The position numbers are program-made. Below, one piece after another: positions 10,201 to 12,911 of a DNA stretch of 64,000 bases. Origin of the DNA: Callorhinchus milii (Eukaryota); the NCBI RefSeq assembly GCF_018977255.1, contig NW_024704953.1:1-64000 (forward strand), read 5' to 3'. Numbering within the stretch: the stretch's first letter is position 1; every line of letters starts with the position of its first letter.

Positions 10201-12911
10201 GGGTATCCTGTAATAGCGCTTTGAGAAGCCTGGAACACCTGATCAGAGGCTATATTAAATGTAAGGATAATTATTATTTATTTCACTCTTTCCCGACATG
10301 AAACACTCCATCACATTTTGCTTTTGGTTGGCAGTTATCATATGTTTCCTATGAGAGACACAGCGGCAAAGTTACAAACTGTTAAATAGGTCAACAGTCA
10401 GGAATAACATCTGTATTGAGATGAAACCCTTTCTCTCCTCTTTGAAGGGTTTTGTACAGTGGTGTAGTCTGACAGCAACACTGTGTGTGTTATGGCAGAT
10501 TAATGGTTGGTGTTAGATAGAGCCATTGGGAAAATGGACACATTGGATCTCTTCGTCCTCGTGTCCAGATTTGGCGCTAAATGTTGTGTTGCAAACTCAG
10601 CCCAGAAAGTGTCTCCATCATCAAAATGTCTCCGCGTTTACAGATGATGCTCCCCTGGATATTGACTCTATCAGAACATTAAAACATTGTTGAGATCAGC
10701 AGATTAGGTGCAGCTCAGGGTTACAGTCTGACCTTCAGTAACAGACACTTCCATTGTGATTTGAAATAAATGATTATGCAGAATTCATCTGCTGTAAGCT
10801 ACATAATAATAATCATTGCATTTGATGGAGTCAATGTGTGTTTCCTGCAGGAGCGCACAGCAGTGTCCCACGAACAGTCGTGTATTGAGGGACCAAACTA
10901 TTTCTATTTAACCTATAAGGGAAAACCTCTCTGATAAAGGCAAGGATTAATCAGTAACAATACCAACTTATTTAATGCATGAGTTACTGTCTCGGAGAAT
11001 GATCAGATAGTCGACTAACAAAGGGTTCGTACTCACAGCTAATAAAGCAGAAGTGTTTGTGGATTGAGGACATTTGCCCAACATTTCTCCCAGCCTGGGA
11101 TTCGAACCCAGGTCCTCTCGCTTGCGAATCGAGTTATCTAACCACTGAGGCACTGGACTCCACTGACAGTAAAATATCACATCACGGATTCTCATTGTAT
11201 ATATATTTTTTATTATTGACACTTGGTGCATATTATTATTTTACTGACCATAATCCTACAGAATTTTGAATCACCTCTCTCACTCTGAAAAAGAAACTGT
11301 TGGTTGCGACGATTTTACTACGAAATAAAATGAAATTTACATCGTAATCTCTGAAGCGCTTTTTGACGTCTCAACGAAGTGATACGCCACGACATCAAAC
11401 ACAAGGACGATAACATTTTATTAGGTTTTTATTACCGTAATTATGAACATCTGTAACTCACTAATTATCCGAATTCCGACAATGGTTCATCACAGTGTAA
11501 TATGTGTTGGTGAAAAAAAAATATTCAGCGAGTAAAATATCACATATTTTAAATGAATTAATATGAGCTCAATCAGTTAAAAGCCATGGTGGCAGTTTGG
11601 AAAAGGTTTGTTACACTGTCTGTCACTGACTGTACTGTATTGTTTTCCAGCTTTGGTTGTGATGAGGGTTATTGTACGAGGCTTCCTATGATGTGTATCA
11701 CTGTGGTGCAGACTGAGTGCACAGTGGTACATAGCGGAGTCTGTCAGCCGCAGGCCGGCGATGGTTAAAACGCAGATTTTCTTGGCAGTGTCAAGAGAAG
11801 CAGAAATGTGATCTCTAGTGGGGTTCCCTCCCTCTCCTGAGGGTTTTCTGTGGAGCAGGTATTTGAGTTCCTCGCCAGGGGTCTGACGGTACCAGGAGAC
11901 GTTGAAATCCTTTCCACAGAATCCTGAATATTGGCAATGTAAATGTATCCTCTCACCAGAAAAAGCACTTTGCTCAGGCGGTGACTGGGAAACTGTATAT
12001 CTGGATCCTGCGGGACGCAAATTACAGGTTACTTAGAATTATGGCATCATGGAACCTAACCCAAACACAACCCTTTCAGGCAGTGCATTGCAGACTGTAA
12101 CAACTTTCTTTGCAAAAAAAAATCCTCATTATCTCACCTCTGGACCTTTTACCACTTAACATAAATTTGGGTTCACTGGTTACTGAAACGCTGACCAATG
12201 AGAATATTTTATATTGATCCAATCTATCACACGACCTCACAAATATGAACACTTCAATCAAATCTGCACTCAACTTTCGGTCTCTAAGCAGAACATTACC
12301 AGAGACCCGAGTATCTTCATTTGAATGAAGCCTCTCGCCCTGGGCATCATTCAATAAAATCTCCTTCGAACCCTGTCCAAGGCCATAGCACTTTCCCCAA
12401 CGTGTCCGTGAAAATCTTTATACTAAATGTAAGAATCACTGTTCAATGAACGGTAGAAAGAGCCGAGGAATGGATAAAATTTGAGTGCTGCTCTGCACCA
12501 TCCAACGTGTGGCTATTGCTGTGACACCATTGTTATGATCGCTCAACAATGCAACGTTTAATTAAGCTTTTTTTATCTTCTACTTAGCCTATGATCAGGG
12601 GAATGTTTAGCAGAGAATCAGGTGTCAGATTGTGCCGTTAAATCAGTGGATTTACAGATGAGGCAAATGGAAAGTTTCCCTTCTGTAAATGCCGATACGT
12701 TAACATCGCTGTTGGAGGAGGTTCAGTCTCTGATTTGTTGCCAATATCAGTTTCCCTCTCAGTCTGTGAGCTGCTCATTGAAGCAAAGTACTCTCTCTCT
12801 CTCTATCTATCTATCTATCGCTCTCTCTCTCTCTGTTTTTTTTTGTTTGTTTCTCTCTTTCTTTCTTACTTTCTGTCATTCTTTCTTTCTGTTATTCTTT
12901 CTTTCTGTCAT

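What the first reader, a model, noticed from the sequence alone, without database searches (positions are those of the whole stretch)
12008..12510. The same CR1 retroelement ends 25-26 nt from the splice acceptor of every supporting V
Seen: in A (tail end ~12034), B (39320), C (49216) and D (~63374) a sense-oriented CR1 3' end stops just before the acceptor tract. It therefore predates cassette multiplication and sits where a leader intron would be. Inference: this insertion may have separated the ancestral V-delta from its leader and promoter, creating the leaderless supporting V that depends on an upstream NAR VDJ. It may also supply the branch point.
Basis: partly seen in the sequence, partly recalled or inferred. 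Interest (0 to 1): 0.65.

Follow-up and report, generated by a model that had tools for sequence, protein, structure and literature searches.

The report
Old CR1 fragment beside supporting-V acceptor
A decayed piece of a CR1-type jumping gene really does sit just upstream of the splice site of all four leaderless T-cell-receptor V exons in this window, but it looks like an old intron passenger copied along with the gene cassettes, not the cause of the missing leader.

Summary
All 4 of 4 supporting V-delta exons in the window (A 12007->11706 minus, B 39347-39648, C 49242-49543, D 63347->63046 minus) are preceded by the 3' end of one sense-oriented, 5'-truncated CR1-like LINE. Flanks are collinear on both sides, so this is one insertion inherited by every cassette. 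The CR1 body has since diverged into three lineages (K2P 0.38-0.50), so it predates the deepest cassette split seen here.

The causal reading is not supported:
- The element lies at the 3' end of a 1.9-2.1 kb intron running from the NAR J donor (phase 1) to the V acceptor (phase 1).
- Conventional V genes in the same window carry SINE insertions in leader introns of up to about 620 nt and keep their leaders.
- No leader relic is conserved upstream of the CR1.
- Leaderless supporting Vs are shared with nurse shark (Venkatesh 2007), so the CR1 would need to be at least that old. I could not test this, because no eukaryotic genome collection was available.

The branch-point candidates conserved in most copies (TAAT in 4 of 4, TAAC in 3 of 4) lie in the 26-nt spacer, not in the CR1 as delimited. 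Most likely an ordinary intronic passenger.

The parts
12034..12510 (-). CR1-like LINE 3' fragment, cassette A: ORF2 C-terminal codons, shortened 3'UTR and tail. The 5' end is firm only to about 12413.
   Evidence: tblastn with P0016 hits 12288-12109 (E 7e-10); nhmmer profile; alignment with the other copies
12008..12033 (-). 26-nt spacer between the CR1 tail and the acceptor AG in cassette A. It equals the AG-exclusion zone and holds TAAC (-22) and TAAT (-15).
11706..12007 (-). Supporting V-delta exon A: leaderless, phase-1 acceptor, open frame.
   Evidence: Pfam V-set E 5.7e-15; ORF
11667..11705 (-). RSS of supporting V A: CACAGTG, 23-nt spacer, ACAATAACC.
12008..14088 (-). Intron A (2081 nt) from the NAR J donor to the supporting V acceptor. 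The CR1 is its last quarter.
14089..14144 (-). NAR J segment A (..DGSGTNLTVTE plus 1 nt, donor A|GTAAGT, phase 1), preceded by an RSS with a 22/23-nt spacer.
12560..12790 (-). Conserved non-coding block directly 5' of the CR1 in cassette A. Also at B 38365-38585, C 48305-48525 and, partly, D 63885-64000.
38685..39320 (+). CR1-like fragment, cassette B: the longest copy, with the full distal 3'UTR and the octamers ATTCAATG ATTCCATG.
39321..39346 (+). 26-nt spacer and acceptor, cassette B.
39347..39648 (+). Supporting V exon B, a pseudogene with an in-frame TAG at 39520-39522.
48624..49216 (+). CR1-like fragment, cassette C.
49217..49241 (+). 25-nt spacer and acceptor, cassette C. Holds TTAAC at -21.
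49242..49543 (+). Supporting V exon C, open frame.
63374..63850 (-). CR1-like fragment, cassette D, with the same internal deletion as A.
63348..63373 (-). 26-nt spacer and acceptor, cassette D.
63046..63347 (-). Supporting V exon D, open frame.
37401..37456 (+). NAR J segment B, donor A|GTAAGT. Intron B is 37457-39346 (1890 nt, of which 308 are N and were left unexamined).
47316..47373 (+). NAR J segment C, donor C|GTGAGT. Intron C is 47374-49241 (1868 nt).

Best explanation
A 5'-truncated CR1-like LINE copy inserted once, in sense orientation, into the intron immediately upstream of the supporting V-delta exon of an ancestral NAR-TCR cassette of this holocephalan lineage. The copy comprises roughly the last 140 codons of ORF2, the 3'UTR and the octamer tail. 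Its tail landed at the upstream edge of the acceptor's AG-exclusion zone, about as close to the 3' splice site as splicing tolerates.

Every later cassette duplication copied it, and it has decayed neutrally since. A and D lost about 160 nt of it. The V exon and the last ~26 nt of the intron stayed conserved.

The supporting V works through its former leader-intron acceptor (phase 1), which now receives the phase-1 donor of the rearranged NAR J 1.9-2.1 kb upstream. The CR1 is spliced out as part of that intron and has no demonstrated role.

Shown: identity, position, orientation, single origin, and age relative to the cassette splits. Inferred: neutrality, and that the acceptor is the old leader-intron acceptor.
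For: Position and single origin:
- Four-way collinear alignment through the upstream block, the CR1, the spacer and the exon.

Gradient of conservation between lineages:
- CR1 body 63-70% identical (421 columns; K2P A-B 0.377, A-C 0.503, B-C 0.402, A-D 0.047).
- Tail 17-19 of 24.
- Spacer 19-25 of 26.
- First 60 nt of the exon 48-56 of 60.

Tree:
- The cassette copies are split from four other CR1 pieces of the window with 99% support.
- Their branches since the split (0.16-0.25) are no longer than the terminal branches of those other pieces (0.19-0.41).

Base rate:
- There are 5 other CR1-like pieces in 64 kb.
- CR1-like LINEs make up 7-8% of the Callorhinchus milii genome (passage of PMC1845163).

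Splicing context:
- J exons end in phase 1 with GT donors, and V exons start in phase 1.
- C. milii gene models P0020, P0021 and P0023 use exactly this acceptor.

Insertions tolerated elsewhere:
- SINE insertions sit in the leader introns of V6997 and V21965, whose leaders are intact.
Against: - The tail sits unusually close to the acceptor. The tail (71-79% identity between lineages) is a little better kept than the body (63-70%), which could mean some splicing role.
- A sense-oriented LINE piece in an intron is the less common orientation (recalled general knowledge, not tested here).
- The age cannot be bounded. C. milii has the slowest neutral rate among the vertebrates compared (passage of PMC3964593). 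A depth of 0.16-0.25 substitutions per site, plus up to 0.19 on the stem, could therefore reach back hundreds of millions of years. An origin as old as NAR-TCR itself is not excluded.
- No transcript data were available to show the splice or the absence of CR1-derived exons.
Confidence: 0.75

Rival explanations
1. The CR1 inserted into the leader intron of an ordinary V-delta and thereby cut it off from its leader and promoter, creating the leaderless supporting V.
For: - The element lies where a leader intron would be. The acceptor has the phase and position of a leader-intron acceptor.
- It is present in 4 of 4 cassettes and is older than their deepest split.
- No leader-like exon is conserved between the CR1 and NAR J.
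Against: - An insertion of 0.5-0.6 kb does not remove an exon. Leader introns of conventional V genes here span about 60-620 nt, and two hold SINE insertions with intact leaders and CAG|GTGAGG or TAG|GTAATT donors.
- A further 1.4-1.6 kb of intron lies between the CR1 and the J donor.
- Leaderlessness is shared by elephant shark and nurse shark (passages of PMC1845163), so the insertion would have to predate that split. Nothing here shows that.
Confidence: 0.04
2. A rearrangement linked to the insertion. Integration of the CR1 near the acceptor was accompanied by deletion of the upstream leader exon and promoter, or the CR1 was the breakpoint of the recombination that joined a NAR V-D-J unit to a V-delta. 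The element would then mark the founding junction of NAR-TCR.
For: - The CR1 3' end lies in the old leader intron, and no target-site duplication is detectable. That is compatible with a non-canonical 5' junction.
- No leader relic lies upstream.
- The depth of the insertion is not bounded, given the slow neutral rate.
- LINE insertion-mediated deletions are documented for mammalian L1 (recalled, not looked up).
Against: - A missing target-site duplication is expected anyway after this much decay, so the test had little power: in B, 134 of 300 shuffles gave a 9-mer match.
- A conserved block lies directly 5' of the CR1 and shows no likeness to conventional V upstream regions or to anything else in the window.
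- The scenario requires an age of at least 374 My (date from PMC1845163), which is unshown.
Confidence: 0.05
3. Exaptation. The CR1 tail now contributes to 3' splice-site recognition, as a branch point or an intronic splicing enhancer, and is kept for that reason.
For: - Between lineages the tail is 17-19 of 24 identical, against 63-70% in the body.
- CTAAG in the tail, at -28/-27, is a 4-of-5 match to yUnAy in A, B and D (reading).
- The polypyrimidine tract is weaker (0.65) than in six of the conventional V acceptors (0.71-0.82), so auxiliary elements could matter.
Against: - The only UnAy motif present in 4 of 4 copies (TAAT, -15), and TAAC/TTAAC (-22/-21, 3 of 4), lie in the spacer.
- The nearest upstream AG is at -26 in 4 of 4, so a branch point upstream of it would be expected to favour that AG. 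This is inference from the AG-exclusion-zone rule, which is recalled.
- Conservation of the tail can also be explained by its being next to the homogenised V exon.
- The spacer itself does not resemble the CR1 octamer repeat (best 9 of 16; 600-859 of 5000 shuffles do as well).
Confidence: 0.1
4. The CR1 was not ancestral but spread between already multiplied cassettes by gene conversion, or it inserted independently at a hot spot.
For: - The V exons are clearly homogenised (85-98% identity).
- The cassettes are mosaics. A is B-like in its NAR half (87%) but D-like in its supporting half (92-96%).
Against: - The CR1 body is as diverged between the three lineages as unconverted cassette DNA (63-70% against about 71%), so it has sat in each lineage since their split.
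- All copies have the same truncation region, the same flanks and the same tail position.
- The cassette copies are split from the other CR1 pieces with 99% support.
Confidence: 0.03

Closest known systems
CR1-clade non-LTR retrotransposons (chicken repeat 1 and the CR1-like LINEs of fishes; the main LINE of Callorhinchus milii)
   Same: - Heavily 5'-truncated copy.
- The ORF2 C-terminal module matches APE+RT ORF2 proteins.
- The 3' end has the GGGCYGAATGGCCTC region followed by ATTCNATG-type octamers and no poly(A).
- A related copy in the window (4730-5247) has an exact ATTCTATG unit.
   Different: - Only the last ~140 codons are left, with stops and frameshifts.
- The octamers are degenerate.
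- A and D lack the distal 3'UTR.
- Placement in the CR1 clade by RT phylogeny is impossible because no RT domain is left.
NAR-TCR (doubly rearranging TCR-delta of cartilaginous fish; Criscitiello et al. 2006; Venkatesh et al. 2007)
   Same: - A NAR V with its own leader, D and J lies upstream of a leaderless V-delta.
- That V-delta has a Cys in CDR1 and its own 23-RSS.
- The J donor and the V acceptor are in the same phase.
   Different: Nothing differs in the receptor architecture. The CR1 in the J-to-V intron is not mentioned in the passages I could read. The 2006 paper was not held, and supplements were closed.
Retroelement insertions in V-gene leader introns (the tRNA-derived SINEs in V6997 and V21965 of this window)
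   Same: A retroelement sits in the intron directly upstream of a V exon, is tolerated, and is spliced out.
   Different: In those genes the leader exon is still present and intact. In the supporting Vs the upstream exon is the NAR J.
Marsupial TCR-mu, a convergent two-V-domain TCR (PMC2275272)
   Same: A second V domain was added N-terminally by recombination between Ig-like and TCR loci. Retrotransposition or LINEs have been invoked for parts of its history (passages).
   Different: It is not orthologous. There the proximal V is germline-joined and lost its leader intron. Here the proximal V kept the acceptor and lost the leader exon.

Membership tests
CR1-clade LINE | Derived from an ORF2 with APE endonuclease and reverse transcriptase | tested here: met
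   Only the C-terminal module survives. It matches P0016 residues 3-74 (E 7e-11 to 7e-10 in A, B and D) and residues 773-909 of P0019 (912 aa; RVT_1 + Exo_endo_phos_2) in B and C (E 0.003 and 7e-4). By structure, the Atlas places the module in RT and endonuclease-RT clusters. Pfam itself finds nothing in the fragments.
CR1-clade LINE | 3' end made of octamer repeats of the ATTCTRTG type instead of poly(A) | tested here: met
   B has ATTCAATG ATTCCATG (1 mismatch each). C has ATTCAGTT..CCATGATTCTA. The related copy at 4730-5247 has an exact ATTCTATG. None has poly(A). The motif is cited in a figure legend of PMC5381603. The units are degenerate, so this is a weak 'met'.
CR1-clade LINE | RT-domain phylogeny within the CR1 clade | not testable with these tools
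   No RT domain remains in the fragment, and no named reference set was at hand. The name CR1-like also leans on the statement that the main C. milii LINE is CR1-like (PMC1845163).
CR1-clade LINE | Flanking target-site duplication | tested here: inconclusive
   A, C and D have no repeat of 9 nt or more (at most 1 mismatch) between the spacer and the 5' junction region. B has 9-mers at chance level (134 of 300 shuffles).
NAR-TCR supporting V-delta | V-set domain with its own RSS | tested here: met
   Pfam V-set E 5.7e-15. CACAGTG, 23-nt spacer, ACAATAACC in 4 of 4.
NAR-TCR supporting V-delta | No leader exon; the exon opens at a splice acceptor | tested here: met
   My leader scan found a leader-like exon upstream of 11 of 11 control V genes (8 conventional, 3 NAR V). 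It found none at homologous places in introns A, B and C. The 308 N in intron B were not examined. The pseudogene V at 5662 was left out of the controls.
NAR-TCR supporting V-delta | Upstream NAR V, D and J, with a J splice donor in the same phase as the V acceptor | tested here: met
   RSS-flanked D and J. J ends with 1 extra nt before GT in A, B and C. The V exon starts with 2 nt of a codon.
NAR-TCR supporting V-delta | Conserved Cys in CDR1 | tested here: met
   CQYSG[FIY]CG in 4 of 4. The feature is as described in PMC1845163.
NAR-TCR supporting V-delta | Expressed as a three-domain delta chain after two rearrangements | not testable with these tools
   No transcript data. Gene models P0020, P0021 and P0023 only show that predictors use this acceptor.
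Exapted TE-derived splice element | The branch point or an essential splicing signal lies inside the TE | tested here: inconclusive
   The motifs kept in 4 of 4 (TAAT -15) and 3 of 4 (TAAC -22/-21) lie outside the tail as delimited. The nearest upstream AG is at -26 in 4 of 4. No lariat data.
LINE insertion-mediated deletion or founding junction | An empty-site or outgroup locus showing DNA lost at the insertion | not testable with these tools
   No eukaryotic genome collection was available.

The most novel reading that the evidence does not exclude
The CR1 is as old as NAR-TCR itself and marks its founding event. Either its integration a few tens of bases upstream of a V-delta acceptor deleted the leader exon and promoter, or the CR1 was the recombination breakpoint. 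In both cases a NAR J donor was fused to a leader-intron acceptor. The conserved 230-nt block at its 5' junction would then be what remains of the regulatory DNA that keeps the supporting V accessible for its own rearrangement.
Probability: 0.06. Interest if true: 0.65.

Novelty: new member of a known kind. Interest (0 to 1): 0.2.

Why it matters
If the CR1 were shared with sharks and rays, it would be a rare physical relic of how a two-V-domain antigen receptor was assembled about 400 million years ago. It would also make that event testable. As the evidence stands, it is a useful paralogy marker for tracing the duplication and gene-conversion history of NAR-TCR cassettes in chimaeras. It also explains why some public Callorhinchus milii gene models carry spurious N-termini translated from the CR1 tail. 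It does not change how the receptor is thought to work.

Tried and rejected
- **Whole-library HMMER search with the 133-aa frame of copy B.** It gave 8 hits. Seven are bacterial Big_13/Big_6 repeat proteins and are spurious. Only P0016 was informative.
- **Pfam on the CR1 frames.** 0 families for 4 of 4 CR1 frames.
- **Rfam, whole window.** Only 4 tRNA-like hits, none in the finding.
- **Word-index search for longer relatives of the CR1 module.** 2 of 92 candidates passed.
- **Atlas search by features.** Only unnamed clusters; the structure rows were usable.
- **Target-site duplication.** None found.
- **Is the 26-nt spacer decayed CR1 octamer tail?** Not significant.
- **RNA structure for the conserved block.** 0 of 38 pairs covary, and the energy is weak.
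- **Likeness of that block to conventional V promoters or leaders.** None: nhmmer at E up to 10 found only the four cassette copies.
- **Dating the insertion.** The tree gives only a bracket. Without a neutral rate I gave up on absolute ages.
- **Literature.** Criscitiello et al. 2006 was not held. Searches found no paper that mentions a retroelement in the NAR-J to supporting-V intron. Supplements, for example those of PMC3964593, were closed and might describe the locus.
- **Not run.** Genome contigs (bacteria and archaea only), the phage, plasmid and E. coli collections, structure prediction and complex prediction. None bears on the question.
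Full report
**What is there**

The window is a stretch of a chimaera TCR alpha/delta V region. The nearest public proteins are Callorhinchus milii, at 83-97% identity and never 100%. It holds eight conventional V segments and NAR-TCR cassettes.

Four supporting V-delta exons are present and no more (self-BLAST):
- A: 12007->11706, minus strand.
- B: 39347-39648, plus strand.
- C: 49242-49543, plus strand.
- D: 63347->63046, minus strand.

Each has a V-set domain (Pfam E 5.7e-15 for A) and a CACAGTG-23-ACAATAACC RSS. The acceptor AGs end at 12008, 39346, 49241 and 63348.

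Directly upstream, in the same orientation as the V, lies the 3' end of one retroelement. The 37-nt tail-to-acceptor string of A recurs at B and D with 3 and 2 mismatches, against 0 matches in 100 shuffles.

**What the element is**

- Copies B and C keep the region GGGCYGAATGGCCTC followed by ATTCNATG-type octamers and no poly(A). The same arrangement is seen in three unrelated copies in the window.
- A DNA profile of the four cassette copies finds 7 further hits belonging to 5 other loci.
- At protein level, the N-terminus of P0016 (a LINE ORF2 C-terminus fused to a gene model) matches A, B and D at 39-51% identity, with E 7e-10 to 3e-11.
- Residues 773-909 of P0019, a 912-aa protein with RVT_1 and Exo_endo_phos_2 domains, match B and C, more weakly (E 0.003 and 7e-4).
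- The Atlas places that module, by structure, in RT and endonuclease-RT clusters.

So the piece is roughly the last 140 codons of ORF2 plus the 3'UTR and tail of a LINE with a CR1-type end. That fits the statement that the main LINE of C. milii is CR1-like and covers 7-8% of the genome (passage of PMC1845163). Clade membership by RT phylogeny cannot be tested, because no RT domain is left.

A and D share a deletion of about 160 nt that removed the distal 3'UTR. The 5' end is supported by homology to about 12413. It probably lies near 12480-12510.

**Context**

Each supporting V lies 2.7-2.9 kb downstream of a NAR V that has its own leader. RSS-flanked D and J segments lie in between.

The NAR J exons end one base into a codon, before GTAAGT or GTGAGT: A at 14089, B at 37456, C at 47373. 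The supporting V exons begin with two bases of a codon. I read the two exons separately and made no joined sequence. The phases fit.

The CR1 is therefore the last quarter of a J-to-V intron. That intron is 2081 nt in A, 1890 nt in B (308 of them N, unexamined) and 1868 nt in C.

The acceptor has the phase and position of the leader-intron acceptors of the conventional V exons in the window, a few codons before the mature N-terminus. The inference that it is the old leader-intron acceptor is reasonable. Three C. milii gene models (P0020, P0021, P0023) use exactly this acceptor.

**One insertion, inherited**

The four loci align collinearly from a conserved block upstream of the CR1, through the CR1 and the spacer, into the exon.

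| Comparison in the CR1 body (421 columns) | K2P |
|---|---|
| A-D | 0.047 |
| A-B | 0.377 |
| B-C | 0.402 |
| A-C | 0.503 |

That is 63-70% identity between lineages, similar to unconverted cassette DNA (about 71% for C against A or B). The V exons are 85-98% identical.

In an ML tree the cassette copies are split from four other CR1 pieces with 99% support. The stem is 0.186 and the branches since the split are 0.16-0.25. The terminal branches of the other pieces are 0.19-0.41.

Spread by later gene conversion is unlikely.

The cassettes are mosaics. A is B-like in its NAR half (87%) but D-like in its supporting half (92-96%).

**The causal claim**

Leaderless supporting Vs are common to elephant shark and nurse shark (passages of PMC1845163). 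Leader loss therefore predates that split, which the same paper gives as about 374 My.

I could not test this. No eukaryotic genome collection was available, and the 2006 NAR-TcR paper was not held.

Age from divergence is not decisive either, because C. milii has the slowest neutral rate among the vertebrates compared (passage of PMC3964593).

What can be tested speaks against 'separation' as a mechanism:
- A simple scan for leader exons found one upstream of 11 of 11 control V genes. The scan asked for an ATG, 12-26 codons, phase 1, a GT donor and a hydrophobic core.
- Their leader introns span about 60-620 nt.
- Two of them (V6997, V21965) contain tRNA-derived SINE insertions and still keep intact leaders and donors. 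In V6997 the SINE is clearly an insertion relative to its paralogue V43218.

In the J-to-V introns the same scan found only lineage-private chance frames: 7 in A, 0 in B, 1 in C. None lies at homologous places. So there is no leader relic, but also nothing that ties its loss to the CR1.

A version in which the integration itself deleted the leader, or in which the CR1 was the recombination breakpoint, cannot be excluded. I rate it at about 5%.

**Branch point**

In 4 of 4 copies the nearest AG upstream of the acceptor is at -26, exactly at the end of the tail. The spacer therefore equals the AG-exclusion zone.
- TAAT at -15 is the only UnAy motif kept in 4 of 4.
- TAAC or TTAAC at -22/-21 is present in 3 of 4.
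- Both lie in the spacer.
- CTAAG in the tail (-28/-27) is a weaker candidate.

The spacer does not look like decayed octamer tail. The claim that the CR1 supplies the branch point is thus not supported, though only lariat mapping can settle it.

**Independent record**

UniProt A0A4W3GAK7 of C. milii (P0001) is 138 of 143 identical to the read-through frame of cassette C. The match includes the residues MASFCFARFSCTMIL, which are translated from the CR1 tail. P0003, P0006 and P0024 also read through the intron end. These models are annotation artefacts, but they show the same juxtaposition in the public C. milii annotation.

**Verdict**

The inference of a single old insertion is correct. The causal and branch-point inferences are unsupported. 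The most likely reading is an ordinary intronic CR1 passenger that makes a handy marker of cassette history.

Noticed in passing
12560-12790 (-); 38365-38585 (+); 48305-48525 (+); 63885-64000 (-, cut by the window end): A non-coding block of about 230 nt directly 5' of the CR1 is better kept between cassette lineages (81-89%) than the CR1 (56-77%) or the C-versus-A/B background (about 71%). It is unique to the cassettes, has indels that are not multiples of three, and shows 0 of 38 covarying pairs. It contains CACCTG/CAACTG E-box-like words (the motif name is recalled). It may be a regulatory element of the supporting V, or a relic of its old upstream region.
   Followed up: partly
39347-39648 (+) and 36327-36611 (+): Cassette B is dead. 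The supporting V has an in-frame TAG at 39520-39522, and the NAR V is frameshifted into a stop. Even so, it keeps the most complete CR1 copy.
   Followed up: yes
10051-18201 versus 41483-33370: This is a large inverted duplication (82-95% identical) containing cassettes A and B. Inside it the CR1 region is only about 70% identical, and A's supporting half is D-like (92-96%). This points to recombination or conversion between cassettes, with a boundary near the CR1.
   Followed up: partly
12058-12066 (-) and 63398-63406 (-): A and D share a deletion of about 160 nt (equivalent to B 39133-39296). It removed the distal CR1 3'UTR, including the GGGCYGAATGGCCTC motif.
   Followed up: yes
7784-7855 (-) and 22293-22364 (+): tRNA-like Rfam hits are the heads of SINE insertions inside the leader introns of conventional V genes V6997 and V21965. 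Both genes keep intact leaders. The V6997 intron is about 620 nt, against about 265 nt in its paralogue V43218.
   Followed up: yes
12791-13885 (-): Intron A alone holds (CT)n and (TTTC)n microsatellites, a 45-nt tandem repeat (13243-13342) and a 192-codon stop-free frame (13307-13885) with no Pfam match. The frame looks like another retroelement tail. No matching sequence aligned in B (where a 308-nt N run hides part of the intron) or in C.
   Followed up: no
1-886: The upstream part of a fifth NAR-TCR cassette (70-75% identical to 15189-15852 and 46293-45415). Its V exons lie off the window.
   Followed up: no
49172-49241 (+) and public proteins P0001, P0003, P0006, P0024: Several C. milii gene models in UniProt start in, or read through, the intron end. 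P0001's first 20 residues are translated from the CR1 tail. These are annotation artefacts.
   Followed up: partly
37989-38296: An N run of 308 nt lies inside intron B. That part of the intron was not examined or filled.
   Followed up: no
5663-5912 (-): A truncated pseudo-V with an RSS (CACAGTG-23-ACAATAACT) and a disrupted frame. It was left out of the control set.
   Followed up: no
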